From a virus, in the IMG/VR virus record IMGVR_UViG_3300026473_000011, positions 1 through 64,000 of that record: a stretch of 64,000 nt of DNA; one strand, written 5' to 3'. Under the pieces are notes generated by a model. It did no database searches. It was not told where the DNA came from and saw only the letters and a program-made list of their open reading frames with translations. The position numbers and the translations under genes are program-made. Positions 39,975-53,697 of this stretch are shown here, one piece after another; within the stretch, counting starts at the first letter, position 1; each line of letters begins with the position of its first letter.

Positions 39975-41183
39975 ATGAGCAAAACGCTAACCGAAATCGC
40001 TCAACAGCTGGGAGCCGCCGACAAAAAGATGCAGCTGATCTATGCCTTCAACGGCATGGGCAAGACGCGCCTGTCGCGGGAATTCAAGCAGCAGATTGCG
40101 ACCGAGGCCGACGGCGATGAAGACGCCGATCCAACCGCGCTGTCGCGCAACAGAATCCTTTATTACAACGCGCTCACGGAAGATTTGTTTTACTGGGATA
40201 ACGATCTGGCGGGCAATGCCGAGCACAAACTGAAAATCCAACCAAACTCGTTTACCGACTGGGTGCTGAAGGATCAGGGGCAAGACCAGAACATCATCAC
40301 AACCTTTCAGCGTTACACCAGCGATAAGCTCACACCGCGATTCAATGAAGAATATAAAGTCATAGGCAATGACGACAAGGAAAGCACCGTCAAAGCCTTC
40401 TCTGAAGTAACTTTCTCTCTTGAGCGTGGCGATGATGAACACTCCGGAAATTTGAAAATTTCCAAGGGCGAAGAAAGCAATTTCATCTGGAGCTTTTTCT
40501 ACACGCTGATTGAGCAGGTAATTGGCGTTCTCAATGTTGCCGAGCCGGAAGAACGCGAAACAGACCAATTCGATCAGCTGAAATATATTTTTGTTGATGA
40601 TCCGGTTAGCTCACTGGATGACAATCATTTGATTCAGTTGGCCGCGGATTTGGCGCAGCTGGTCAAATCAAACGAATCCAGTGTCAAATTCATTATCACG
40701 ACGCACAATCCGCTTTTCTTCAATGTGCTTTGCAATGAGTTTGGTAGCGATGAAAAAACCGAGCGCTACAACTGGAAGGCAAAGTGGTTCAGCAAGTCAC
40801 GGCTGGAGAAAAATGCGGACGGCAGTCTTCAATTGGTAGAGCAGCCAAACGATTCTCCGTTTGCGTATCACCTGCATCTGCTATCGCTGCTTGAAGAGGC
40901 AATAAAAAGCGGTCAGATCGAAAAATATCACTTCAATCTTCTCCGGAACATTCTCGAAAAGACGGCAACATTCCTCGGATACAAAAGGTGGGAACACCTT
41001 CTGCCGGAAACAGACGACGGCTTGCCCAACCCGTACGCAAAGCGAATTGTGAACTTCTCAAGCCATTCGAAACATGCTGCCGAAGAAGTGTCACCACTGA
41101 AACCTGAAGAGAGACAGGTTCTGGAAAAACTGGTCAAGCACGTTGTCGAGCAACATCGATTTTGGCAGGAAAAAACCACATGA
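39975..41183 (+). CDS. prrC: PrrC-like anticodon nuclease (ABC ATPase + HEPN)
   Basis: [33 protein letters not shown]; LRNILE...SSH; located between hsdS and hsdR as in EcoprrI. Confidence 0.85.
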
Positions 41184-44100
41184 TCGAATACAGCACCATC
41201 GCCGAATCGAAACACTTCATCGTCCTGGACAAATACACACAGGAATGGAAAGTCGCAGAAAGTTACCAGAGCGAAAGCGATCTAGAGCGGGAATTTGTTC
41301 AAGATCTGGTCAATCAGGGTTACGAGTATCTACCCGGCCTCAATACGCCTGAGTCCCTGCTTGCAAATGTACGCGTGCAGCTGCAAACGCTCAACAACAT
41401 GCAGTTTGCAGATGGCGAGTGGTTGCGTTTTGTCGAGACCTGGTTGGACAAGCCTAGTGATGGCATCGTTGAGAAAACCCGCAAGATTCACGACGACTAT
41501 ATCCACGACTTCGTCTTTGACGATGGGCGCATCCAGAACATCTACCTGCTGGATAAGAAGAACATCGCCCGCAACAAGGTGCAGGTGATCAAACAGTTCG
41601 AGCAGACTGGCAGTCACGCCAATCGCTATGACGTGACGATTCTGGTGAATGGCCTGCCGCTGGTTCAAGTGGAGCTAAAAAAGCGCGGCGTCGCGATTCG
41701 TGAGGCTTTTAACCAGGTGCACCGGTACAGCAAGGAGAGCTTTAACAGCGAGCATTCTTTGTTCAAGTATCTGCAGCTTTTTGTGATCTCCAACGGTACC
41801 GACAGCCGCTACTTCGCCAACACCACGGCACGCAACAAGAACAGCTTCGACTTCACCATGAACTGGGCGAAGGCGGACAACAGCCTGATCAAGGATCTGA
41901 AAGACTTTACCGCCACCTTCTTCCAGAAGCACACCCTGCTTAATGTGCTGCTGCATTACTCGGTGTTTGATGTCAGCAACACGCTGCTGGTGATGCGCCC
42001 GTACCAGATTGCCGCCACGGAGCGCATTCTGTGGAAAATCAACAGCGCGTATCAAGCCAAGAACTGGAGTCAGCTTGAGGGTGGTGGCTTCATCTGGCAC
42101 ACCACCGGTTCGGGCAAAACCCTGACCAGTTTCAAGGCGGCGCGTTTGACCACGGAGCTGGACTTCATTGACAAGGTGTTTTTCGTGGTGGACCGCAAGG
42201 ATCTGGATTACCAGACCATGAAGGAATACCAGCGCTTTTCACCCGACAGCGTGAATGGCTCGGACAGCACCTCCGGGTTGAAACGCAATCTGGAGAAGGA
42301 CGACAACAAAATCGTCGTCACCACCATCCAGAAGCTCAACAACCTGATGAAGAGCGAAACCGACTTGCCGATCTACGGCAAGCAGGTGGTGTTCATTTTT
42401 GATGAATGTCACCGCAGCCAGTTTGGTGAAGCCCAGAAGAACCTGAAGAAGAAGTTCAAGAAGTTCTATCAGTTTGGCTTTACCGGCACGCCGATCTTCC
42501 CGGAAAACGCCTTGGGCGCAGAAACCACTGCCAGCGTGTTTGGCCGCGAATTGCATTCTTATGTGATTACCGATGCGATCCGTGATGAAAAGGTGCTGAA
42601 GTTCAAGGTGGATTACAACGATGTGCGCCCGCAGTTCAAGGCCATTGAAACCGAGCAGGATGAGAAGAAACTCAGCGCGGCGGAAAACAAGCAGGCTTTG
42701 CTGCACCCGGACCGTATCCGCGAGATCACGCAGTACATCCTGAACAACTTCCGCCAGAAAACCCACCGTCTGCAAGCGGGCAATAAAGGCTTTAATGCCA
42801 TGTTCGCGGTCAGCAGCGTGGACGCAGCCAAGCTGTATTACGAGTCGTTCCGGGATCTGCAGAAAGGTAGCCAAACGACACAGCGGCCATTGCGAGTGGC
42901 CACCATCTTCTCGTTTGCGGCCAACGAGGAACAGGATGCGGTCGGCGACATTCAGGACGAAAGTTTTGATGTCTCGGCCATGAACAGTAGCGCCAAAGAG
43001 TTTTTGAGCGCAGCCATCGCGGACTACAACGCGCTGTTCAAAACCAACTTCAGCGTGGACAGCAACGGTTTCCAGAACTATTACCGCGATCTGGCCAAGC
43101 AGGTCAAAGCCAAGGAAATCGACCTGCTAATTGTGGTAGGCATGTTCCTGACCGGCTTTGACGCCCCCACGCTGAATACCTTGTTCGTGGACAAAAACTT
43201 GCGCTACCACGGGCTTATGCAGGCTTACTCGCGTACCAATCGCATTTTTGACGCCACCAAAACCTTTGGCAATATTGTCACCTTCCGCGATCTGGAGCAG
43301 GCGACAGTCGACGCCATTACCCTGTTCGGTGACACCAATACCAAGAATGTGGTGTTGGAGAAGAGTTACAAGGAGTACATGGAAGGCTTTACCGATGCGG
43401 CCACCGGCGAGGCGCGGCGGGGATTTTTAGAGGTGGTAAAGGAACTTGAGCAGCGTTTTCCTGACCCTGCAGCCATTGAAAAAGAGGCAGACAAAAAAGC
43501 CTTTGCGAAACTGTTTGGCGAATATTTGCGCGTTGAGAATGTGCTGCAAAACTACGATGAATTCGCCAGCCTGAAAGCCTTGCAAAGCATCGATTTGACC
43601 GATCCAGCGGCGGTGGAAGCGTTCAAGGCCAAACACTATTTGAGCGATGACGATCTGACATCACTGCAAGCTATAACGCTCCCTGCTGAGCGGAAAATTC
43701 AGGATTACCGCTCGACTTACAACGATGTGCGCGACTGGCAACGCCGTGAAAAAGCAGGGACTGAGAAGGATAAATCTGCTATCGATTGGGATGATGTGGT
43801 CTTTGAAGTGGACCTGCTTAAGTCACAGGAAATCAATCTGGACTACATCCTTGAACTGATCTTCGAACACAACAAAAAGATCAAGAGCAAGTCGGACCTG
43901 GTGGATGAAGTACGCCGGGTGATTCGTGCAAGCCTGGGTAATCGTGCCAAAGAGAGCTTGCTGGTCGACTTCATCAATCAGACTGATCTGGACCAGATTG
44001 GCGACAAGGCCAGCGTGATCGATGCCTTCTTCACCTTTGCGCAAGCGGAGCAGCAGCGTGAGGCGCAAGAGCTAATCAGTGCGGAGAACTTGAATGATGA

Positions 44101-44287
44101 GGCGGCACGTCGCTATATCGCTACTTCACTCAAGAGAGAGTTTGCCAGCGATAGCGGCACGGAACTGAACGCCGTGTTGCCCAAGATGAGCCCACTGAAC
44201 CCGCAATACCTTACGAAGAAGCAGAGCGTGTTCCAGAAAATCGCCGCTTTTGTGGAAAAGTTTAAAGGCGTGGGTGGGAATGTCTAA
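41180..44287 (+). CDS. hsdR: Type I R-M endonuclease subunit R
   Basis: RYDV...VELK nuclease motif; HTTGSGKT; DECH; QAYSRTNR. Confidence 0.97.
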
Positions 44288-45656: not shown

Positions 45657-46154
45657 TTATTGAAGAGTTTTTGACTCGCGCTCATACCACCGCTGAATTT
45701 CAATGAGCATCAACGTAGTCTGCGCAGCATCCCTGCTCAGTTGCTCGCAGCTCACTTCTCCCGCATCTCCTGAGGGAGCAGGTAGAGGGTCGGAGCGGGC
45801 TGGAGCAACTCCGGCGGGAGCTTCGGGAACGGCGGACAGATCCCTGCCACCGGATGAGGGGATGTTGCACACCCCGCCAGCGCGACTGTCAGGCTGGCGA
45901 TCAGCCAGCAGCTTTGACCTTTTTGTGTATTCATTTGAGATTTCCTGCGTGATTTGAGATTGGGTCAGCCGCACATCGGCTACGTGCTGCTCTTGCATGG
46001 CCTGGGCCTGCGCGATCTTTTGCTTCTCGGCATCCCAAGCTTTCTGGACACGGGACTCCCCCATCTGCACTCCGCACAACAACGCCATGAGCAGCAGGAG
46101 TGCTTCCAGGATGTGCGACCAGTTGGCCAGCAAGAATCGGGGGAGCCAGTTCAT
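45657..46154 (-). CDS. Rz-like inner-membrane spanin
   Basis: N-terminal TM segment then a coiled coil; follows the endolysin. Confidence 0.8.
   Translation of the reverse strand: MNWLPRFLLANWSHILEALLLLMALLCGVQMGESRVQKAWDAEKQKIAQAQAMQEQHVADVRLTQSQITQEISNEYTKRSKLLADRQPDSRAGGVCNIPSSGGRDLSAVPEAPAGVAPARSDPLPAPSGDAGEVSCEQLSRDAAQTTLMLIEIQRWYERESKTLQ
45752..45934 (-). CDS. Rz1-like outer-membrane lipoprotein spanin embedded in Rz
   Basis: Lipobox LAGC; Pro-rich CPPFPKLPPELLQPAP; alternative reading frame. Confidence 0.8.
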   Translation of the reverse strand: MNTQKGQSCWLIASLTVALAGCATSPHPVAGICPPFPKLPPELLQPAPTLYLLPQEMREK

Positions 46155-46615
46155 GCAGTGCCTCCGTCCAAGTCCAGCAGGTTGTGCTGCTTGATCAGGC
46201 CAACGACCTTGTCCGCATATGCGGGGTCGGTCGCATAACCCGCCTGCGCCAGTGCCTTGGCAAAACCCTGGGCCGTGGTGCAAGCAAAGCAGGCCTTGTA
46301 GCGGGGGTTGCGCTTGAGGAACGCGGCGTGGTCATCGATGCTGGCCTGCCAGCTTGGGTACTTGCGCCAGAGAGCTGGCACCACCACCCACTGCCCTTTG
46401 ATGAACTCCTTGGTATTCAGGGTCAGGGTCTGGCCGCGCCAGAGGCTGTCCGCTTTGATCCCAAAGAGGTTGTTGCCATTCTTAGCCAATCCAGACTCCC
46501 CCCAGGCGGACTCAAGGGCGGCCTGTGCGATCGTGATGCTGGCGGGAACACCCGTGGCTTTGGCTGACGCGATGGCGGCCGTGGTGAGCCGCATGATGAA
46601 TTCACTGGGATTCAC
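46151..46615 (-). CDS. Endolysin, glucosaminidase (GH73/FlgJ-like)
   Basis: AQAALESAWG, NNLFGIKA, GYATDPAY. Confidence 0.93.
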   Translation of the reverse strand: MNPSEFIMRLTTAAIASAKATGVPASITIAQAALESAWGESGLAKNGNNLFGIKADSLWRGQTLTLNTKEFIKGQWVVVPALWRKYPSWQASIDDHAAFLKRNPRYKACFACTTAQGFAKALAQAGYATDPAYADKVVGLIKQHNLLDLDGGTA

Positions 46616-46995
46616 AGCATCTCCTTCACGTCCTTGGCCACCTCGTCAATGGAGTCGTCGCGGCGCTTGTCAATGAAGGCAAAAGTCCAACGCACCATAG
46701 CCCACCCAGGCAGGCCACAGGCAAAGATCAACCCACCCAGGGCGCACAGCCCCATGGTTGAGAAGGCCCAGTGGTGCAGTCCGAAATGCTCGACGGTAAT
46801 GGCGCCGCCACCAATGCTGGACACCACGGTACTGATCAGGCCCACGGCCCACTCCCGTTTGTTGCGTGGCGGGGTCATCAGCATGACCACCACCGCAGCC
46901 AAGGTGGCTCCACTGGCGGCTGCGGCTGCAGTTCCACCCAAGGCCTTATAGGCCACCGCTGCTCCGGCGACCCCGCTGCTTGTCGGTTCTGGCAT
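46612..46995 (-). CDS. Holin
   Basis: MPEPTSSG; 2-3 hydrophobic segments and a charged C-terminus; upstream of the endolysin. Confidence 0.8.
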   Translation of the reverse strand: MPEPTSSGVAGAAVAYKALGGTAAAAASGATLAAVVVMLMTPPRNKREWAVGLISTVVSSIGGGAITVEHFGLHHWAFSTMGLCALGGLIFACGLPGWAMVRWTFAFIDKRRDDSIDEVAKDVKEML

Positions 46996-47005
46996 TCGTT
47001 TCTCC

Positions 47006-47038
47006 AAAAGAAAAGCCGCCAGGGCGAACCATGGCGGC
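47006..47038 (-). terminator. Terminator-like hairpin between the radical SAM gene and the holin
   Basis: GCCGCCA-N10-TGGCGGC followed by TTTTCTTTT on the minus strand. Confidence 0.6.
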
Positions 47039-47075
47039 AAAGAACAAGAAATTGATATGGATTGGTGAGTCAGGC

Positions 47076-48497
47076 CTATGCGGCAACGACTTCAATCGGA
47101 AACGTTTTTCGTTTGTGCAACGTCGGGACAACTGTCTCCATGTCACCCCCCGTTTCTACGAAATCCAGACTGATGACCTCCAAACCGGGATGCCTGCTTC
47201 CTCGGATGGCATCTGCCTCAATTCGCGTCAGGATCAGGCCCTGGGTCTGGTAATACAGCGCAGCAGCCATGACCGCCAGGTTGTGCGAGAACGAGTTGTC
47301 ACAAGCGTGGCTCCAATAGTCGCCCTCAAGGAACAGACAGGCACCCTTGCACAACTGCACCACAGGGCAGCTTGGACATTCATGGCGCGTGCTGAAGTGG
47401 TAGGCCGTGTTGAGTGCAATGTCGTCAAACAGTTCAACATGCCCGATCCTGTGCTTCGTCGAGGCACTCATGTTCTGGCATGTCATGACATTGCCCTTCA
47501 TGTCCACCGCGATCGAATCATCCCGGTCCATACCGCATTTCTGGCCCAGGGAAGCCAGCGGTCTGGACTGGGCTTGCGCGCGCATGAATTCATCGACCTT
47601 GTCGCGCATCGTCCCCACAGCCATGCCCGAGCCGGTCACCAGCTCCCAGAACATCTGGTGGCGATAACGGTCGTGATCTGCCCCTTCCAGAGACAGCGAC
47701 ATGCCCCCCTGGTCATAAGGCAGCATCACCTCTTCGGTGGCCAGCACAATGGCCTGAACTGGCAGGTCAAGCTTTTCAGCGAAGAAATGCCGAACGGCCT
47801 TGAGGGACTGGTTGTGCCGGTGCAGCACTGTGTTGAAGCTCATCCGGTCCAGTGGCATTCGCCGGGACACCCAGCGCTTGATTTGGGCCAGCTTCTCGGG
47901 GTCTTCCAGCGGATCTGGCCCTCGGAAGGACTGCGCAGGGCCGTCATGTGACAGGCCGATCCCGATGTCCAGCGCCTCCACCCAGGCCAGCTTTTCATCA
48001 TCAAAGAGCGAGCCGTTGGTCACGATGGACAACTGCGCATTGGGGTAACGCACCTTGACGGCTTCACCCAGTGGCTTGAGCAGCTTCCAGTACACAAAGG
48101 GCTCGCCACCCCAGAACTCAATCTTTACATCTGCGCCCTGCCCGTCCGTGCCTCCGGCAAACCAGCCTTCAAGCTGCTGCATGAATGGAGCGACATCTTC
48201 AGGGTGACCGTCGATGTCATGGGGTTGGTGGGCCTGAGAGCAGTACTGACAGGTGTAGTTGCACTTGAGGCCCAGCTGCAGTTTCAGGTGCCGGATGGCT
48301 CTCGATTTCCCTGTAGGATTGCTCGGGTGATGTACATGCCAGAACGGCTGCCATTGCATGTCCTGCTGCTTGGGGAACGCCTGCGGGAGGGGCAAAGCCT
48401 CCCCACTGTTTTTCCACACCAAGCTGGAATAGTTGGGATCGTAGAGAGCTTGCCGTTCAAAGCCATTGCGCCCATTGAGAGTGAGCGTGAATGTCAT
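47076..48497 (-). CDS. Radical SAM/SPASM domain protein
   Basis: CNYTCQYC (CxxxCxxC), FWGGEP, TNG, SHDGP; SPASM KCG...GNVMTC...CPSCPVVQLCKGAC...C. Confidence 0.93.
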   Translation of the reverse strand: MTFTLTLNGRNGFERQALYDPNYSSLVWKNSGEALPLPQAFPKQQDMQWQPFWHVHHPSNPTGKSRAIRHLKLQLGLKCNYTCQYCSQAHQPHDIDGHPEDVAPFMQQLEGWFAGGTDGQGADVKIEFWGGEPFVYWKLLKPLGEAVKVRYPNAQLSIVTNGSLFDDEKLAWVEALDIGIGLSHDGPAQSFRGPDPLEDPEKLAQIKRWVSRRMPLDRMSFNTVLHRHNQSLKAVRHFFAEKLDLPVQAIVLATEEVMLPYDQGGMSLSLEGADHDRYRHQMFWELVTGSGMAVGTMRDKVDEFMRAQAQSRPLASLGQKCGMDRDDSIAVDMKGNVMTCQNMSASTKHRIGHVELFDDIALNTAYHFSTRHECPSCPVVQLCKGACLFLEGDYWSHACDNSFSHNLAVMAAALYYQTQGLILTRIEADAIRGSRHPGLEVISLDFVETGGDMETVVPTLHKRKTFPIEVVAA

Positions 48498-48703
48498 GGC
48501 GTGGGCTCCTCAAACGCGATGGGATAGGCCTCACGGCAGACCTGGGACGGGTCAACGCCGGGCATCGTTGCCAGATTGAATGTGTGACGACCTGAGGCTT
48601 TCCCCTCAGAATTAGTGACCAATACGGTCATCACCAGGCTCGACGCATCGACCTGTACGACCTTGACCTCGTAGCCCGGTCGGGTTTGAAGATTGAGATT
48701 CAT
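48494..48703 (-). CDS. Small hypothetical protein (69 aa)
   Basis: ATGA overlaps on both sides. Confidence 0.7.
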   Translation of the reverse strand: MNLNLQTRPGYEVKVVQVDASSLVMTVLVTNSEGKASGRHTFNLATMPGVDPSQVCREAYPIAFEEPTP

Positions 48704-49413
48704 TGATTTGACTCCATGGGATGGACTTGGGCGTGCGCCCGGATCTGTTCGGCTGACCAGGTTTGGTCACCGCCAGAGTCGTCACGGTGGGTGAAGCGGA
48801 CATTGGTAACGATGGCGACCTTGTCGCTTGCGGGATCGAACAGCGGAAACGTGGAATGCTCCAGATAACCCGGAAAAATGAACAACGCCCCTGGAAGGGG
48901 CGTCTGTGCGAAGAGCTTGTTTTCGTGCCGGAGCATCCAGTTGGCCTGCACTGGTCTGGGGTCGTGAAAACACAGGGCGCCAGGCATTCCGACTTCATTG
49001 CGTCCCTCTGTTGGACCTAGATGAACCCGGGGGTAATAAGTGGCCACCAATTGGTTGCCGACATGTCGGTGCGGGATGGCCCACTTTCCCAAACCGCGCT
49101 GGCGGTTCACGAAGGTGTTGTAGGTCATGGCCAGATCAGAAGGCTCTAGCGAGGGATACGCTTGCCGTACATAGCTGGCGACTCTGTCCTCGATGCAGGC
49201 CAGCAATCGCAGTAGTTCTGCACTGGGCTGCTCGCGCATCATCGACACCGTGTCAGCACGATGTGAAAGCTTCGCAGCGTTCTGGGTGTGGCGCTCGTAA
49301 AAACGCTCGGCTTGCTGCGTCAACGACTCGCGCACATCCTCAAGCTCATCAAGCTGATCGATCAGAACGTGGCTGGGCCACAGGCTCAGCAACCGGGGTG
49401 AAGGGGGTGTCAT
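48700..49413 (-). CDS. Putative Fe(II)/2OG oxygenase (TIGR02466-like)
   Basis: PHRH...TYYP...GALCFHDPR...PGALFIFPGYLEHS. Confidence 0.82.
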   Translation of the reverse strand: MTPPSPRLLSLWPSHVLIDQLDELEDVRESLTQQAERFYERHTQNAAKLSHRADTVSMMREQPSAELLRLLACIEDRVASYVRQAYPSLEPSDLAMTYNTFVNRQRGLGKWAIPHRHVGNQLVATYYPRVHLGPTEGRNEVGMPGALCFHDPRPVQANWMLRHENKLFAQTPLPGALFIFPGYLEHSTFPLFDPASDKVAIVTNVRFTHRDDSGGDQTWSAEQIRAHAQVHPMESNQ

Positions 49414-50204
49414 CGTGTCAGATCTCCATCAAGAATCATCTGTACTGGGTGTTTGCGGCCATAGAACCGGTTCGGTCGGTAGGTTCTGCTGGGGTGGTCA
49501 AACTCGATCCAAGGCCAGACACTGAAATGCATGCTGCAGCGGCTTCCCATCCAGGAGTCCCGATTGACCAGCGTGTGTTCGTAACCCGAGCAGTTCATCC
49601 ACAGGCATTCACCGAGGTTGAATTTCAGATCACCTACGCCATCGATGGACAAGGCCACACCGGACGATACCGCCAGACAGATGTCCAGCCGGATCTCCTC
49701 GAAGACCGAGGTATCCCGGTGTGGATGAACCAGGGCCTCATCGCGTGGGTTGGGCGGGACCAGAACCGTCAGACGCCCGGAGCCAACCGTGAGCGTGAAC
49801 TGATCAAGCATTGCTCCGATCTCCAGGTAACACCCGACAGGCGAGCGATGCACAAATGCCAGATGGTCTGCACCGCTAAAGCGGCCTGGGTTTTTACAAA
49901 GATAGGGGTCCATTGCGGTCACGGGCTGCCCCGTATGCGCCAGAGACAGATTGCGGAAATAACCTGGACTGGCCTCACTGACCTGAGTCTCCCAGACCTG
50001 CGAATCGAAGCGATCGAACGCCATAGCAAAAGCTTGCTCTAGCCGACTGGGAACCTCGACGCCAGGCACAGCTCGGATCGCCACGAGCTGGTCCAGCGCA
50101 GAGTCGGATACCGCCGCTACGGCTGATTCAAAGTCTGTCTCTTGCCGCAAGTACGCGGCCACCGTCATGTGATTGGGGATGCTGTCTGCATGTACCTCCC
50201 ACAT
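49410..50204 (-). CDS. Putative Fe(II)/2OG oxygenase, Asp/Asn beta-hydroxylase-like
   Basis: HxD...H triad: VHPHRD...IRLDI...GECLWMN...EHTLVN...R. Confidence 0.62.
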   Translation of the reverse strand: MWEVHADSIPNHMTVAAYLRQETDFESAVAAVSDSALDQLVAIRAVPGVEVPSRLEQAFAMAFDRFDSQVWETQVSEASPGYFRNLSLAHTGQPVTAMDPYLCKNPGRFSGADHLAFVHRSPVGCYLEIGAMLDQFTLTVGSGRLTVLVPPNPRDEALVHPHRDTSVFEEIRLDICLAVSSGVALSIDGVGDLKFNLGECLWMNCSGYEHTLVNRDSWMGSRCSMHFSVWPWIEFDHPSRTYRPNRFYGRKHPVQMILDGDLTR

Positions 50205-51007
50205 CAGCTCACCTCTACCGAGGCACTGACCTTGTGGCTGAAATACTTGAATCCGACCTTGATCAGCCCACGGTCCTGAGCCGACAGGCCAAGGGCCATC
50301 CAATTGAAGTGCGCCTCGCCATCAACGAGGGCCACCTTGGTCTTGGGCAGAAATCCTGCTTCACATTCAAGGTAAAGGACGCCACTGCGTGTCTCAACCG
50401 CAGGCATGCCATTGGTCTCGTAGACCGGCTGGATCAGACGCACGCTACAGGGAACGGTTGCCCCAGCTGCACAAGTGACAGGCACATCCAGTTCGAGGGA
50501 TGGGAGAACTGCGTTGTAGAGCGAGACCCGCGAGCGCACTTCCACGAACTCGGCAAAGCCCTCTGGCGACATAGATTCGGGTGAATAGACAAGTACCGCC
50601 ACTTCCTCAATTGGGCTGTCCTCAAAGGGCACAAAAAACAGCACCGTACGCGGATGCAGCGGTCGCCCCAACAGGAACGGATTCTTGTGCAGGTTTGTCT
50701 GCGGGAACACCGAGTGCAAATGACCCAGATCGTCCCAGCCAAACCGAGCTTCAAGGGCCCAGTTGGTGTGGATGCCCCAGTGCTTGCCTAGGTCGGTGTG
50801 TGACTTGATGGCTTGCGGATCGAAAACAAAGGGGCGTGAGCCATATTCCTTTTCGTGGGTCTCCGGGTGAATTCGCCACGGTGTCACGGTGATCGTCTGA
50901 GCCTGCACATCGCGCTCGACACGGTAACTCACCGGAAAAGCGCCAAACGATTCGGCCGGCGACGGGATATTGAACAGCCGTCCGCCAACGGTGCTGCTGT
51001 CAGTCAT
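50204..51007 (-). CDS. Hypothetical fibre-associated protein (267 aa, beta-rich C-terminus)
   Basis: AAAGGA RBS before ATG 51007, 11 bp after the fibre stop; TGATG overlap downstream. Confidence 0.75.
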   Translation of the reverse strand: MTDSSTVGGRLFNIPSPAESFGAFPVSYRVERDVQAQTITVTPWRIHPETHEKEYGSRPFVFDPQAIKSHTDLGKHWGIHTNWALEARFGWDDLGHLHSVFPQTNLHKNPFLLGRPLHPRTVLFFVPFEDSPIEEVAVLVYSPESMSPEGFAEFVEVRSRVSLYNAVLPSLELDVPVTCAAGATVPCSVRLIQPVYETNGMPAVETRSGVLYLECEAGFLPKTKVALVDGEAHFNWMALGLSAQDRGLIKVGFKYFSHKVSASVEVS

Positions 51008-51018
51008 GGTGATTCCTT

Positions 51019-52035
51019 TCAGCAGTCCGTGCTGCAGTTGCAATTGCAGTTGCAGTTGCAATTGGTGCGGCAATTGAAGGCTGTGTTGCCGCAATTGCAG
51101 TTGGTGTAGCTTCCACAGTTGCAGTTGCAATTGCAGGCTCGATACCAACGGTGGTACTCGCCGCCACCGATCTCGTCTTGAGCCAGGTAATAACCGTCGT
51201 AGTTCCACGCAATGGATGGGACGGCGTTGTAGGCGTAGGTCGTCCCTCCGACACCGTCGTACTGACCTGAATTCGCACAGTAGTTGAATCCCAGACCCCA
51301 GGTCCACCAGCTGGTATTGGAGGGCTTGAAATAAGCATTGCCTGCGCAATTTCCCGTGGGCAGGATGCCGTTGCAATTGCCTGTCAGGTCGTCGTAGTAC
51401 TGGTTGCTACGTCCCATCTCGCCAATGTCCTGGCCATCGTTCAGTCGATATCCAGTGTTACGTGCGTTGTCTGCAGCACCGGACTGCGATGAATAGATCA
51501 CAGCACCATTGGCCATGTACAGCGAGCCGGTCATCGTGTCGCCCGCCTTGGCCAGACGACTCGTGAGGTCAATGGGTACGGTGGCATTGCCAGTGGCATC
51601 CGGTGCGTTGCCATTGACTGAGCGCACGAAGGCCGTGGAGTCATAGCCATCGAGCTTGTCGGCGTCTGCCGCCTTGGCGGTGATTCCTAGGTATGCGGCA
51701 TTGTGGTTGTGGCCCAACGAGGCATAAGCCGCATCATGGTTGTGCCCGGCCAATGCAAAGCCGGTCGAGTCGATGCCATCGAGCAAATCTGCATTGGCCA
51801 CCTTGCCCACCGTGGCCGACAGGTCGATGACCATCTTCCAGGAGGCCGGGCTCACCACCGTGAGGATGTAGAGCTTTTGCTCATCGGTCCTGAAGCATGG
51901 CATGCCCAGCTGCAAGTTCACAGTCGGGAATGCCGTTCCACTGCAGAGTGACAAGGCAGTCTTGTCGTTATTCAGGATCTGCGAGAGCGAATCCGAGAGC
52001 GTCGTCGAGGATGGGATTTCGGTGTAGTTCTGCAT
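51019..52035 (-). CDS. Tail-fibre-like protein with a C-terminal (Asn-Cys)n tail
   Basis: Fibre motifs ADLLDGIDS/ADKLDGYDS, GHNH x2, VRSVNG, KAGDTMTG; ends CNCNCNCGSYTNCNCGNTAFNCRTNCNCNCNCNCSTDC. Confidence 0.85.
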   Translation of the reverse strand: MQNYTEIPSSTTLSDSLSQILNNDKTALSLCSGTAFPTVNLQLGMPCFRTDEQKLYILTVVSPASWKMVIDLSATVGKVANADLLDGIDSTGFALAGHNHDAAYASLGHNHNAAYLGITAKAADADKLDGYDSTAFVRSVNGNAPDATGNATVPIDLTSRLAKAGDTMTGSLYMANGAVIYSSQSGAADNARNTGYRLNDGQDIGEMGRSNQYYDDLTGNCNGILPTGNCAGNAYFKPSNTSWWTWGLGFNYCANSGQYDGVGGTTYAYNAVPSIAWNYDGYYLAQDEIGGGEYHRWYRACNCNCNCGSYTNCNCGNTAFNCRTNCNCNCNCNCSTDC

Positions 52036-52046
52036 TTGGTTTCTCT

Positions 52047-53237
52047 TCAGTAACCCTGTGCGACCCAGGAGATGGCACCCGTCACGCGGGTGCCGGAGGT
52101 GTTTTCAAGAACAGCGGTGAAGCCAGTGATGGAGACCGTCCCCAGGATTCGTGGAACGGCGATGGTGGTGCCACCCTTGAAGGTCAGCGTGACTTCGGGT
52201 GCCACCCGGAACTGCCGGGCAAAGAGCACCACCACGCCACTGGCGGCCGTGACCACCTGCGCCGTACCCCGGTCAAAGACATCGGGCACGTCCACCGTTA
52301 CGCGCAGGCCATCGATGTAGCCCCGGTCTGCATTACTGGAGGTCAGGATTGCCCTGAACAGGGCGCGCTGGTAGGTGTAGTCGCCCTGGATGAAATCCCG
52401 GAAGTTGGTGTACCCGGGCGGATGGCCGGACTCCAGGATGTCCATGAAGTCCTGCTCCGTGATTTCCGTATTGGCCACGATCATGTCGCTGATGACGCCA
52501 TTGGCCCGGCGCCGGTATTGCTCGGCAAGGTTCAGCGCTTCACTGAGCTTCAGAGTCTGGGCCCGCCGCAGTGCCTCGGCGATGGCAAAGCCTTCGCTGA
52601 TGGCCAGGCGGTAGGCAACCGTGCGCCCCAGCGCCTCGGCAAAAGCGAACGACTCCGAGACCCGTTTGACCTGCGAGCGGGCCAACGCATCACTCATGGC
52701 AAAGCTCTCGCCCTGCGGCTTGGTCAAGGCCTTGGCTGGCTTTTCTGCAAAGTTCAGGTTTTCTGCAACCCGCAGGATGTAGGCAATGAGGTCCGTGTAG
52801 GTCTCGGCCAGCGCCAGCGATTCAAACTTGCGGAGCACCAGTTGCCTCGCCAGCTCTTCGGCCACCTGAAACACCTCGAACACAGCCTTGGTGCCAGAGC
52901 GGGCGTACTTCTCGGCGAAGGTCAGCGACTCCACAAAGCGCAGCACGAAGGCGATCAGGTCGGTGTAGGTCTCCACAAAATTCAGCGTCTCGAACTTGCT
53001 GAGGGTCACCGCACGGCTGGCTTTTTCCGAGAAACTCAGGCCCTCGGAGCTGCTCTTGATGCCCAACTTCTGGACCAACTCGACAAAACTCAGGTCCGTG
53101 GCCACGCTCAGGGCGTAGACCGCTGGATAGGCACTTGACCAGTTCTTGCCTGCCGTGGCGCTGCTCCAGGCGAACTTTCCCGAGGTCCAGTTGTAGTTCG
53201 CCCCCGGGGCGCTGGAGACGTTGACAGTCTCGGCCAT
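52047..53237 (-). CDS. Tail-associated protein with internal repeats
   Basis: Repeated E-x-L-x-(F/L)-x-E units; ETYTDLIA occurs twice. Confidence 0.75.
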   Translation of the reverse strand: MAETVNVSSAPGANYNWTSGKFAWSSATAGKNWSSAYPAVYALSVATDLSFVELVQKLGIKSSSEGLSFSEKASRAVTLSKFETLNFVETYTDLIAFVLRFVESLTFAEKYARSGTKAVFEVFQVAEELARQLVLRKFESLALAETYTDLIAYILRVAENLNFAEKPAKALTKPQGESFAMSDALARSQVKRVSESFAFAEALGRTVAYRLAISEGFAIAEALRRAQTLKLSEALNLAEQYRRRANGVISDMIVANTEITEQDFMDILESGHPPGYTNFRDFIQGDYTYQRALFRAILTSSNADRGYIDGLRVTVDVPDVFDRGTAQVVTAASGVVVLFARQFRVAPEVTLTFKGGTTIAVPRILGTVSITGFTAVLENTSGTRVTGAISWVAQGY

Positions 53238-53250
53238 CTCACGCGCCCGA

Positions 53251-53697
53251 TCAGCTCATGGTGAAGGTGAAGACGGCCGTGAGGCTGTCATCAACCCCCT
53301 TGTTGACCACCGGAAAAACCACCCTGTCGAACATGATGCCCGCTGCAGCCGCATTGAAGACCCCCGCCTCCGTGAGAGCCCCGGTGGCGTCGCCTGCCGC
53401 ATAGCTGGCCGTGAAGGTGAACACCTTGGTGCCAGCGGTGTGGGCGTAAGTGGCCACGTTGCGCTTGATCTCGGTCACCAGCGCCGTCTGCGTGGCGGCA
53501 GCAGCGGTGGTGCCAGTGCCCACCGCGATCCAGCCCATGACGCCCGGGCGGCTGCCCGCGTTGCCAATGGCGTCGGCCACAAAGTCGAAGCCGCCATTGA
53601 CAATGATGTTGTCCTTGTGGACCACTTCGACCTCGCCCGTGGGCTTGGCCAGCACCAGCGTAATCGAGCCTTTGATGCTCATGCCCTCTTCCATCAT
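53251..53697 (-). CDS. Phage tail/baseplate-type structural protein
   Basis: NIIVNGG...IAVGTG...LTEAGVFNA. Confidence 0.8.
   Translation of the reverse strand: MMEEGMSIKGSITLVLAKPTGEVEVVHKDNIIVNGGFDFVADAIGNAGSRPGVMGWIAVGTGTTAAAATQTALVTEIKRNVATYAHTAGTKVFTFTASYAAGDATGALTEAGVFNAAAAGIMFDRVVFPVVNKGVDDSLTAVFTFTMS

What the first reader, a model, noticed from the sequence alone, without database searches (positions are those of the whole stretch)
47076..52035. Candidate RiPP-like maturation cassette for a phage tail fibre: (Asn-Cys)n fibre + two oxygenases + radical SAM/SPASM
Seen: inside the late tail operon, a fibre-like gene ending in NC repeats is followed by five genes with overlapping stops and starts (267-aa unknown, HxD..H oxygenase, HxH..H oxygenase, 69-aa protein, radical SAM/SPASM), then a hairpin and the holin. 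Established: SPASM radical SAM enzymes form Cys thioether crosslinks in peptides and proteins (QhpD on QhpC, PapB, and NxxcB, which links Cys to Asn). Inference: the fibre C-terminus is the substrate, so the virion carries a crosslinked or hydroxylated tip that could affect receptor binding, stability or metal binding. I know of no characterised example on a virion protein.
Basis: partly seen in the sequence, partly recalled or inferred. Interest (0 to 1): 0.93.

Follow-up and report, generated by a model that had tools for sequence, protein, structure and literature searches.

The report
Radical-SAM cassette for cysteine-tailed phage fibres
A freshwater prophage, like many unrelated phages, pairs a tail-fibre protein ending in alternating Asn-Cys residues with a radical-SAM enzyme of the peptide cross-linking kind, so it probably modifies the tip of its host-binding fibre in a way I found described in no paper.

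Summary
On the minus strand, after a lambda-like tail operon, lie a 338-aa fibre ending in 13 Cys and 11 Asn-Cys (last 39 residues), a 267-aa protein, two 2OG/Fe(II)-type oxygenases, a 69-aa protein and a radical SAM/SPASM enzyme. A terminator-like hairpin and the lysis genes follow.

- Forward: 121 of 128 related radical SAM loci with at least 4 kb upstream have a same-strand ORF carrying an (xC)n run of 3 or more. In 109 the run is C-terminal; in 12 a Hint self-cleaving domain follows it. After de-replication, 26 of 30 enzyme clusters are positive.
- Reverse: 37 of 38 NCNCNCNC-tailed ORFs with at least 3.5 kb downstream have this enzyme downstream.

Only the tail and the radical SAM are constant. 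The oxygenases, p267 and p69 are optional. The tail is kept at the protein level (8 synonymous, 0 non-synonymous changes against L007).

The enzyme has the full CxxxCxxC and 7-Cys SPASM signature but reaches no curated maturase cut-off. Thioether cross-linking of the fibre tip is the best reading. It is inferred, not shown. Six literature searches found no paper describing it. This scan has noted the same kind of system before on other DNA.

The parts
51019..52035 (-). Side tail-fibre-like protein, 338 aa, with a modular N-terminal half and a C-terminal domain ending in the Cys tail
   Evidence: ORF. It lies after J, p148 and p396 in a lambda-like tail operon. Its N-terminus is 35% identical to Achromobacter phage JWF gp028. 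639 relatives matched; the 120 listed are all unnamed and without Pfam. The relative P0039 shares the N-terminal half but has a different NC-tailed C-domain.
51022..51138 (-). Cys-rich tail, last 39 residues: 13 Cys and 11 Asn-Cys in blocks. It contains the conserved layout NCNC-G-x-x-(F)-NC-x-x-NCNC(xC)n.
   Evidence: invariant N/C columns in 21 tails. Protein-level conservation.
50204..51007 (-). p267: two-domain protein. Residues 169-267 form an invasin/intimin-type bacterial Ig-like domain. The N-terminal domain has no identified fold. Function unknown (fibre partner or chaperone inferred).
   Evidence: AF2 model pLDDT 77, pTM 0.73. VIA-align Z 10-11.5, rmsd about 2 A over about 90 residues. 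The family is present in at least 80 of 135 loci.
49410..50204 (-). oxy1: 2OG/Fe(II)-dioxygenase-like protein with an invariant HxD...H and Arg. It matches no Pfam family.
   Evidence: Invariant H162, D164, H210, R222. Foldseek top hits are all 2OG oxygenases, TM 0.3-0.45, from a mediocre model of pLDDT 65. 0 of 7 members hit Pfam. The family is in 13 of 135 loci plus RSP15.
48700..49413 (-). oxy2: putative 2OG-Fe(II) oxygenase of Pfam family PF13759
   Evidence: The window copy scores 25.2 bits against a cut-off of 27. 16 of 20 family members match PF13759, best E 2.6e-18. phrog_81 E 2.8e-12. The family is in at least 77 of 135 loci.
48494..48703 (-). p69: small protein of unknown function, translationally coupled to the radical SAM
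   Evidence: ATGA overlaps on both sides. No Pfam, NCBIfam or PHROG hit. Atlas hits are at chance level. The family is in 26 of 135 loci.
47076..48497 (-). Radical SAM/SPASM enzyme, 473 aa, of the phage family phrog_1802
   Evidence: phrog_1802 E 5.3e-53. TIGR04085 SPASM 34.1 bits against a cut-off of 27. Invariant CxxxCxxC and 7 SPASM Cys. PDB profile hits: 8vpo 1.3e-20, anSME 6e-16, CteB 1.5e-14.
47006..47038 (-). Terminator-like hairpin (7-bp GC stem plus U-run) between the cassette and the lysis genes
   Evidence: -19 kcal/mol, z -1.96, 4 of 200 shuffles fold as well.
46612..46996 (-). Holin-like membrane protein (probable true ATG at 46996; the ORF listing starts it at the TTG at 47040)
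   Evidence: The phrog_1024 match starts at residue 16. GGAG precedes the ATG. A GTGA overlap joins it to the endolysin.
46151..46615 (-). Endolysin (glucosaminidase)
   Evidence: PF01832 E 2e-40. phrog_3513 E 2.6e-58.

Best explanation
The fibre's C-terminal (Asn-Cys)n tail is the substrate of the co-transcribed radical SAM/SPASM enzyme. During late gene expression in the host cytoplasm, the enzyme most likely abstracts a hydrogen from a side-chain carbon of the Asn, Ala or Asp residues that alternate with Cys. It then joins that carbon to a nearby Cys sulfur held on an auxiliary Fe-S cluster. This would give several non-reducible thioether (ranthionine-type) staples within or between the chains of the fibre tip. 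In this lineage, two 2OG/Fe(II) oxygenases probably add hydroxylations as optional tailoring. p267 (Ig-like C-domain) and p69 are accessory, perhaps a fibre partner or chaperone and an adaptor.

Shown: the gene layout, the enzyme signatures, the two-way co-occurrence, and protein-level conservation of the tail.

Inferred: that the tail is the substrate, the type of bond, the roles of the accessory proteins, and that the modified protein sits on the virion.
For: 1. Forward test: 121 of 128 radical SAM loci with at least 4 kb upstream carry a same-strand ORF with ([NADSGQTV]C) repeated 3 or more times within 7 kb upstream. 109 are terminal and 12 are followed by a Hint-like domain. The median distance is 1441 bp. 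Only 4 ORFs elsewhere in the same loci have such a terminal motif, out of 10,189 stop-to-stop ORFs of 80 aa or more examined. Four of the 7 misses carry shorter or variant Cys tails. After de-replication, 26 of 30 enzyme clusters at 70% identity or more are positive.

2. Reverse test: 37 of 38 NCNCNCNC-tailed ORFs (65 aa or more, with at least 3.5 kb downstream) have the enzyme family downstream on the same strand. That is 27 of 28 distinct tails.

3. The pair travels on at least 6 unrelated carrier bodies. One has a Phage_T7_tail domain plus collagen repeats. It also occurs in different phage types: a lambda-like siphovirus here, Ackermannviridae RSP15, JWF-like siphoviruses, and a 229-kb contig.

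4. Domain swaps keep the tail. P0039 has the same N-terminal half and a different C-domain but still ends in NC repeats.

5. Hint-fused relatives (P0027, JWF gp028) would self-cleave to leave nearly the same C-terminus that the window encodes directly.

6. Translational coupling runs from p267 to the radical SAM.

7. The enzyme has a full SPASM signature. Its best named NCBIfam hits include the thioether maturases PapB and QhpD (the top hit is a nif11-like peptide maturase), and solved CteB is among its PDB profile hits.

8. The residues alternating with Cys are Asn 64.5%, Ala 19.3% and Asp 9.8%, out of 737 dipeptides in 114 distinct tails. NxxcB makes a Cys-Asn beta-thioether and tolerates Ala, Gln and Asp as acceptor (PMC9389541, passages). 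The window tail holds 7 NxxC motifs.

9. There is precedent on whole proteins: QhpD on QhpC, and CrpC on CrpA (PMC13692751, abstract and passages).
Against: There is no biochemical or proteomic evidence of any kind.

The enzyme reaches no curated equivalog cut-off: PapB 58 against 340 bits, QhpD 52 against 453, SCIFF 34.5 against 425, TIGR04463 24 against 525. The bond type is therefore open.

By profile, the anaerobic sulfatase-maturating enzyme, which does different chemistry, matches as well as CteB and over the full length (6e-16 against 1.5e-14).

No RRE or PqqD-like domain was detected.

Tail composition does not track oxygenase presence (Asn fraction 0.69 with the oxy2 family against 0.65 without). 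Nothing ties the oxygenases to Asn specifically.

Oxygenases that need O2 sit beside an O2-sensitive radical SAM. This needs explaining, although QhpD-type enzymes work in aerobes (recalled).

Two bacterial homologues (L058, L073) sit next to ABC-transporter and HlyD genes with no tail ORF nearby.

Many loci are close relatives, so the raw counts overstate independence (one search gives the de-replicated figures).
Confidence: 0.6

Rival explanations
1. The radical SAM does act on the Cys tail but with other chemistry. Options include oxidation of Cys to formylglycine-like aldehydes as in anaerobic sulfatase maturases, alpha-carbon (sactionine) thioethers, or C-C or C-O cross-links.
For: anSME (4k36/4k37) matches the family profile over the whole length at E 6e-16, as well as the thioether maturase CteB at 1.5e-14. 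No thioether equivalog cut-off is reached. JWF's homologue was annotated 'anaerobic sulfatase-maturating enzyme' in one record.
Against: The tail lacks the C/S-x-P/A-x-R sulfatase motif (motif recalled; tail read). TIGR03942 scores 37.7 against a cut-off of 349. The restricted Asn/Ala/Asp set next to each Cys fits an acceptor role with a beta-carbon. Gly occurs once in 737 positions.
Confidence: 0.15
2. The (xC)n tail is a metal- or Fe-S-binding or disulfide zipper that holds the fibre trimer together. The enzymes act elsewhere, on other residues of the fibre C-domain or on p267.
For: Alternating CxC motifs are typical metal ligands, and trimeric fibre tips can bind metal through HxH repeats (T4 gp37, recalled). 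The Dieter et al. discussion suggests CrpA may bind metals (passage). Outside the runs, the tail has a conserved non-repeat layout.
Against: This does not explain why a SPASM radical SAM accompanies the tail in 121 of 128 and 37 of 38 cases across unrelated carrier bodies. The tail and the enzyme are the only constant parts.
Confidence: 0.12
3. The tail is a recognition tag or a releasable core peptide. The product would be a small secreted Cys-rich peptide (a phage-borne RiPP), and the fibre-like protein only a carrier.
For: Some phages encode three tandem small (93-116 aa) NC-tailed proteins, which resembles multiple RiPP precursors (L147, L153, L154). Bacterial homologues sit beside ABC-transporter and HlyD export genes.
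Against: No protease or exporter is present in the window cassette. Carriers include bona fide fibre domains. Hint variants cleave after the tail, not before it. The cassette lies between the tail and lysis genes.
Confidence: 0.05
4. The enzymes are auxiliary metabolic or host-takeover genes unrelated to the fibre, and they lie there by chance of phage genome mosaicism.
For: phrog_81 is filed under 'moron, auxiliary metabolic gene and host takeover'. Published notes treat phage radical SAM genes as metabolic or antibiotic genes (PMC12801897 passages).
Against: The two-way co-occurrence holds across unrelated backbones. The genes are translationally coupled within the fibre operon.
Confidence: 0.03

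Closest known systems
CrpC/CrpA of Methanococcus voltae (Dieter et al. 2026, PMC13692751; abstract and passages read)
   Same: A SPASM radical SAM enzyme with three [4Fe-4S] clusters modifies a neighbouring Cys-rich protein, not a short peptide, with ranthionine-type thioethers.
   Different: It is archaeal and cellular, and the function of CrpA is unknown. The window enzyme scores only 24 bits against the TIGR04463 cut-off of 525 (the tie of CrpC to TIGR04463 comes from earlier scan note e1-5846371, not from a call of mine). CrpA motifs differ (a CPLVL-type motif is mentioned in the passage). The paper has 0 mentions of phage or tail.
NxxcB/NxxcA streptococcal RaS-RiPP (PMC9389541, passages read)
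   Same: It makes a beta-thioether between Cys and an Asn three residues upstream. The acceptor may also be Ala, Gln or Asp, which is the same residue set that alternates with Cys in the phage tails. NCNC contains overlapping NxxC motifs.
   Different: It acts on a short secreted peptide with a leader, in a quorum-regulated operon. No NxxcB model was among the 25 best NCBIfam hits. The register of any link in the fibre tail is unknown.
QhpD/QhpC of quinohemoprotein amine dehydrogenase
   Same: A SPASM radical SAM installs Cys-to-Asp/Glu thioethers in a protein subunit in aerobic Proteobacteria, alongside an oxygenase step (as described in PMC13692751; the oxygenase step is recalled).
   Different: TIGR03906 scores 51.7 bits against a cut-off of 453. 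QhpD uses an RRE and a leader. The substrate is an enzyme subunit, not a virion part.
CteB / PapB ranthipeptide (SCIFF) maturases
   Same: CteB (5wgg) is the closest solved thioether maturase by sequence and matches over residues 64-385. PapB is the second-best NCBIfam hit.
   Different: All scores are far below the curated cut-offs. The substrates are short peptides from anaerobes. The PapB Cx3D register does not fit an NC repeat (inference from the sequence).
C-terminal self-cleaving domains of phage fibres and Hint domains
   Same: In 12 related loci, and in P0027, the Cys run is followed by a Hint-like domain beginning with Cys (JWF gp028: Hom_end_hint 47.5 bits against a cut-off of 32.1). 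This would expose the tail as the new C-terminus.
   Different: The window's fibre has no Hint domain and ends directly after the tail. Cleavage is inferred, not shown.

Membership tests
Radical SAM superfamily | CxxxCxxC cluster motif and a SAM-binding core | tested here: met
   C79, C83 and C86 are invariant, and W129-G-G-E-P133 is invariant in 17 sequences. PDB profile hits to radical SAM enzymes reach E 1e-20. Pfam PF04055 for the single sequence is just under its cut-off (26.5 against 29.5).
SPASM subfamily | C-terminal 7-Cys motif for two auxiliary [4Fe-4S] clusters (C-x9-15-G-x4-C ... C-x2-C-x5-C-x3-C ... C) | tested here: met
   TIGR04085 scores 34.1 bits against a cut-off of 27. C321, G335, C340, C374, C377, C383, C387 and C399 are invariant. 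Cluster binding itself is not testable here.
Curated thioether maturase equivalogs (PapB NF047865, QhpD TIGR03906, SCIFF TIGR03974, TIGR04463, CcpM TIGR04068) | Whole-protein score at or above NCBIfam's curated cut-off | tested here: not met
   The scores are 58.3 against 340, 51.7 against 453, 34.5 against 425, 24 against 525 and 43.8 against 500. It is not a member of any of these families. It works like them only by inference.
Anaerobic sulfatase-maturating enzymes (TIGR03942) | Curated cut-off, and a substrate motif C/S-x-P/A-x-R | tested here: not met
   37.7 bits against 349.45. No such motif is in the fibre tail (the motif is recalled).
RiPP system | A short precursor with leader and core, a recognition element (RRE/PqqD-like), and usually a protease or exporter | tested here: not met
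   The substrate candidate is a 338-aa fibre. No PqqD/RRE, protease or transporter family was found in the six cassette proteins. The system is RiPP-like in its enzyme only.
2OG-Fe(II) oxygenase, Pfam PF13759 (oxy2) | Pfam gathering score and conserved metal-binding His residues | tested here: inconclusive
   The window copy scores 25.2 against 27 bits. 16 of 20 family members match, best E 2.6e-18. H115 is present in at least 90% and H186 is invariant.
2OG-Fe(II) dioxygenase fold (oxy1) | Double-stranded beta-helix with an HxD/E...H triad and a 2OG-binding basic residue | tested here: inconclusive
   H162, D164, H210 and R222 are invariant in 7 sequences. All top Foldseek hits are 2OG oxygenases, but TM is 0.3-0.45 and the model pLDDT is 65. 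There is no Pfam hit. A specific Asn beta-hydroxylase kinship was not seen.
Phage tail fibre | Encoded in the tail module after the tip protein, with homology to known fibres and presence in virions | tested here: inconclusive
   Position after J, p148 and p396. The N-terminus is homologous to JWF gp028. Other tail carriers have Phage_T7_tail and collagen domains. The window's own fibre has no Pfam or PHROG hit. Virion presence is not testable here.

The most novel reading that the evidence does not exclude
Many tailed phages of Alpha- and Betaproteobacteria, and other phages too, enzymatically staple the tips of their host-binding fibres. A dedicated radical SAM family would install thioether cross-links on a portable (Asn/Ala/Asp-Cys)n tag. 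The tag can be moved between fibre bodies or exposed by a Hint self-cleaving domain. This would be RiPP-type chemistry applied to a structural virion protein and decorated by optional oxygenases.
Probability: 0.5. Interest if true: 0.9.

Novelty: new variant of a known kind. Interest (0 to 1): 0.8.

Why it matters
Enzymatic cross-linking by radical SAM/SPASM enzymes is known for small peptides and for two cellular proteins. I found it described for no virus particle.

If the fibre tip is stapled by thioethers, that would explain how a tip with 13 cysteines survives oxidising fresh water. It would also define a portable tag and enzyme pair that evolution moves between fibre bodies.

The radical SAM genes seen in phage host-recognition regions, which are now labelled hypothetical, metabolic or 'antibiotic', would get a function. 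The module is frequent: at least 577 viral stretches and 159 genome stretches matched. It also occurs in cultivable phages (JWF, 2-1, RSP15), so the question can be tested directly.

Tried and rejected
1. Complex prediction of the radical SAM (alignment A6) with three 4Fe-4S clusters, SAM and the 80-residue fibre tail (A5): score 0.00 in two runs, controls not run, verdict 'no answer'. It counts neither for nor against binding.

2. Hairpin in the 35-nt gap right after the radical SAM: not better than shuffles. The consensus terminator scan also missed it, because the loop is longer than the scan allows. The real hairpin lies 3' of the gap.

3. p267: Foldseek against the PDB gave only Ig-domain matches with TMq of 0.30 or less. 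The wide VIA-align search covered only residues 168-267, so the N-terminal domain remains effectively untested. Atlas hits scored 0.80, a weak lead only. Pfam hit 1 of 23 members, weakly.

4. p69: no family in Pfam, NCBIfam or PHROGs, and atlas hits at chance level.

5. No specific assignment is possible.

6. Link between tail composition and accessory enzymes: none clear.

7. Precursor-like Cys-rich ORFs near the bacterial homologues L058 and L073: none found.

8. Literature: six searches found no paper that links Cys-repeat fibre tails with a radical SAM.
- PMC2938197 (passages): tandem 2OG dioxygenases in cyanophages, and operons with tail-collar proteins.
- PMC7029224 (passages): radical SAM cassettes in the pelagimyophage host-recognition cluster, not interpreted.
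- PMC12801897 (passages): a radical SAM maturase called an antibiotic gene.
- PMC3556154 (passage): the Hint domain is a TerL intein, which is irrelevant here.
- PMC9959647 and PMC9228384 (passages): nothing on the module.
- Searches for RSP15 and JWF papers gave no virion proteomics. The JWF characterisation paper (Dreiseikelmann et al., cited in PMC9228384) is not in the library and may hold virion mass spectrometry.
Those of PMC13692751 (MS/MS data) and PMC2938197 (gene neighbourhoods) may bear on the comparison.

9. Rows dropped before counts.
- Forward test: 39 of 167 loci with less than 4 kb upstream were set aside; 13 of these were positive anyway.
- Reverse test: of 117 strand hits, 36 short ORFs (under 65 aa, mostly AT-rich repeats) and 15 internal runs were set aside, as were 28 of the 66 tail ORFs with less than 3.5 kb downstream.

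10. Slip: one search included a junk 3-residue row and a mis-set start. The alignment was redone.

Full report
WHAT IS THERE. On the minus strand the window carries a lambda-like siphovirus tail operon: major tail protein, chaperones, tape measure, minor tail proteins and a 1169-aa J protein (phrog_31, E 0). It is followed by p148 (phrog_5417, and phrog_4176 'tail fiber protein'), p396, and then the reported genes:
- a 338-aa fibre-like protein (52035..51019)
- p267 (51007..50204)
- oxy1 (50204..49410)
- oxy2 (49413..48700)
- p69 (48703..48494)
- a 473-aa radical SAM/SPASM enzyme (48497..47076).

A holin-like protein and a glucosaminidase endolysin follow. The window belongs to a 73.4-kb IMG/VR virus record with one copy of the enzyme. 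The closest genomic relatives are prophages in Hylemonella and Limnohabitans assemblies. GC content rises from about 0.50-0.53 to about 0.60 at 46 kb, and the first 45 kb look like a host defence island.

CHECK OF THE OBSERVATION. The fibre's last 39 residues hold 13 Cys and 11 Asn-Cys dipeptides. The fibre-to-p267 junction is an 11-nt gap with a ribosome-binding site. p267 to oxy1 overlaps by one base (TGATG), and the next three junctions are ATGA overlaps. The hairpin is real but displaced. The 35-nt gap after the radical SAM folds no better than shuffles. A 7-bp GC stem with a U-run lies at 47038..47006 (4 of 200 shuffles fold as well), followed by GGAG and an ATG at 46996. That ATG is the likely true start of the holin-like gene, because the phrog_1024 match begins at residue 16.

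The tail is not a plain microsatellite. TRF reports two short imperfect hexamer arrays. Asn and Cys codons are mixed across 21 homologous tails (AAT/AAC 60/92, TGT/TGC 65/139). Changes against relatives in the last 48 codons are mostly synonymous: 8 to 0, 12 to 3 and 19 to 5.

THE ENZYMES. The radical SAM matches the phage family phrog_1802 (E 5.3e-53). In 17 diverse relatives the CxxxCxxC motif, the WGGEP motif and all seven SPASM cysteines are invariant. The SPASM domain model passes its cut-off at 34.1 against 27 bits. No curated maturase equivalog comes near its cut-off: the best are a nif11-like peptide maturase at 63.8 against 518.7, PapB at 58.3 against 340, and QhpD at 51.7 against 453. 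Against solved structures, the family profile finds 8vpo (1.3e-20, core only), the anaerobic sulfatase maturase (6e-16, full length) and the thioether maturase CteB (1.5e-14, full length).

oxy2 belongs to Pfam PF13759. The window copy is just under the cut-off, but 16 of 20 family members match. oxy1 has an invariant HxD...H plus Arg, and its structural matches are all 2OG oxygenases, from a mediocre model. It has no Pfam home. p267 has an invasin/intimin-type Ig-like C-terminal domain (Z 10-11.5) and an unassigned N-terminal domain. p69 matches nothing.

THE CO-OCCURRENCE TEST, FORWARD. Relatives of the radical SAM were collected from annotated phages, IMG/VR (at least 577 stretches, best 80 kept) and GTDB genomes (159 stretches, best 80 kept). 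Of 167 loci, 128 have at least 4 kb upstream. Of these:
- 109 have a same-strand ORF within 7 kb upstream ending in a run of at least three [NADSGQTV]-Cys dipeptides.
- 12 more have such a run followed by a Hint-like domain.

That makes 121 of 128. Elsewhere in the same loci only 4 ORFs have such an ending. The seven misses are:
- RSP15 (fibre ends NCQCGN)
- L080 (ends ...PCACGQGK)
- L148 (a YC/SC repeat)
- L152 (...ACNCAGGACDCG)
- two bacterial loci where the enzyme follows HlyD and ABC-transporter genes (L058, L073)
- one rearranged contig (L015).

After clustering the enzymes at 70% identity or more, 26 of 30 evaluable clusters are positive.

THE CO-OCCURRENCE TEST, REVERSE. Of 117 strand hits, 66 are ORFs of at least 65 aa with the run within 12 residues of the C-terminus. 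Another 36 are short ORFs in simple AT-rich repeats, and 15 are internal runs. Of the 38 tailed ORFs with at least 3.5 kb downstream, 37 have a member of the enzyme family downstream on the same strand. That is 27 of 28 distinct tails.

WHAT IS CORE AND WHAT IS OPTIONAL. Across 135 loci that have both tail and enzyme, the accessory families occur as follows. These are lower bounds, limited by ORF calling:
- p267 family: at least 80 loci
- oxy2 family: at least 77
- p69: 26
- a second radical SAM: 20
- oxy1: 13
- another oxygenase family: 13
- none of these families: 19
- any oxygenase: 80.

Only the tail and the radical SAM are constant. The tail sits on at least six unrelated protein bodies, from 84 to 900 aa. 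They include one with a T7-type fibre N-terminal domain and collagen repeats and sets of three tandem small proteins.

The window fibre's own relatives show module swapping. P0039 has the same N-terminal half and a different C-domain that still ends in NC repeats. P0027 has the window-type C-domain and tail followed by a Hint-like domain. JWF's fibre has the same arrangement, with a Hint domain above the Pfam cut-off. Self-cleavage at the Hint cysteine would leave the Cys run at the C-terminus, which is what the window encodes directly. This step is inferred.

HOW IT MOST LIKELY WORKS. The constant pairing, the operon coupling and the enzyme class point to the tail as the enzyme's substrate. 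The most likely reaction is thioether formation between Cys sulfur and a side-chain carbon of the alternating residue. In 737 dipeptides from 114 distinct tails that residue is Asn 64.5%, Ala 19.3% and Asp 9.8%, and Gly only once. NxxcB makes a Cys-Asn beta-thioether and accepts Ala, Gln and Asp in place of Asn (PMC9389541, passages). An NC repeat is a string of overlapping NxxC motifs, and the window tail has 7. Whole-protein substrates have precedent in QhpC and CrpA (PMC13692751, abstract and passages).

A plausible benefit, which is inference, is a redox-inert, protease-resistant fibre tip in oxic fresh water. The oxygenases would add optional hydroxylations, but their target is unknown, and tail composition does not track their presence.

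The bond type is open because the sulfatase maturase is an equally good structural relative and no equivalog cut-off is met. A metal-binding role for the tail is not excluded and could coexist with modification.

COMPARISON AND NOVELTY. The system works like the SPASM thioether maturases but is a member of none of the curated families (see the membership test). It is not a RiPP system in the strict sense: there is no short precursor, no RRE, no protease and no exporter.

Six literature searches found no description of it. The nearest remarks are radical SAM cassettes in the host-recognition cluster of pelagimyophages (PMC7029224, passages) and dioxygenase arrays in cyanophages (PMC2938197, passages).

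This scan has noted similar systems before on other DNA. Notes e1-5846371 and e1-6219347 describe NC-type tails with a radical SAM and 2OG oxygenases, and others describe CXXX-type repeats. These are AI notes, not independent evidence.

I rate this a new variant of a known kind: known enzymology on a new class of substrate, in a new biological setting. Interest is 0.8. Confidence is 0.6 that the radical SAM cross-links the tail by thioethers. I judge it more likely than that (my estimate, not a computed value) that the tail is the enzyme's substrate in some way.

Noticed in passing
L058:6407-9332 and L073:5774-9362: Two bacterial homologues of the radical SAM (41-43% identity; Sulfuritalea and Sulfuricella MAGs) lie directly after HlyD-like and ABC-transporter genes. 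They have no phage genes and no Cys-tailed ORF upstream. This may be a secreted-peptide cousin of the phage system. I identified no precursor.
   Followed up: partly
L001:3838-5289, L003:3847-5289, L053, L054, L056, L057, L059-L061, L063, L129, L144; protein P0027: In 12 loci and in P0027, the (xC)n run is followed at once by a Hint-like self-cleaving domain that begins with Cys. In JWF the domain is above the Pfam cut-off. Cleavage would expose the Cys run as the C-terminus. A thioester intermediate next to many thiols could also allow ligation chemistry.
   Followed up: partly
L147:5477-6428, L153:5570-6510, L154:5570-6510: Some large phage contigs encode three tandem small proteins (93-116 aa), each ending in NCNCNCNC or NCNCACNC, upstream of the radical SAM. 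This resembles multiple precursors.
   Followed up: no
L023:7296-8303 and 19 other loci: A second, shorter radical SAM/SPASM-like gene sits between the p267-like gene and the main radical SAM in 20 of 135 loci.
   Followed up: no
window 50204-51376 (minus strand): the ORF listing gives a 390-aa TTG ORF that overprints the fibre tail in another frame, reading the NC repeat as (LQ)n. This is an artefact of the repeat. p267 starts at the ATG at 51007, behind AAAGGAA.
   Followed up: yes
window 1-45600: The first 45 kb have lower GC (about 0.49-0.58, against about 0.60 in the phage part) and carry a type I restriction HsdR (41162-44287) and other defence-type genes noted by first readers. The phage part starts near the lysis genes at about 45.6 kb, so the 'virus record' includes a host or island flank.
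   Followed up: no
window 52047-53697 (minus strand): p396 and p148, between J and the fibre, are conserved with the fibre in related loci. The C-terminal part of p396 matches JWF gp027 (34-38% identity), so they probably belong to the same fibre or baseplate attachment set.
   Followed up: partly
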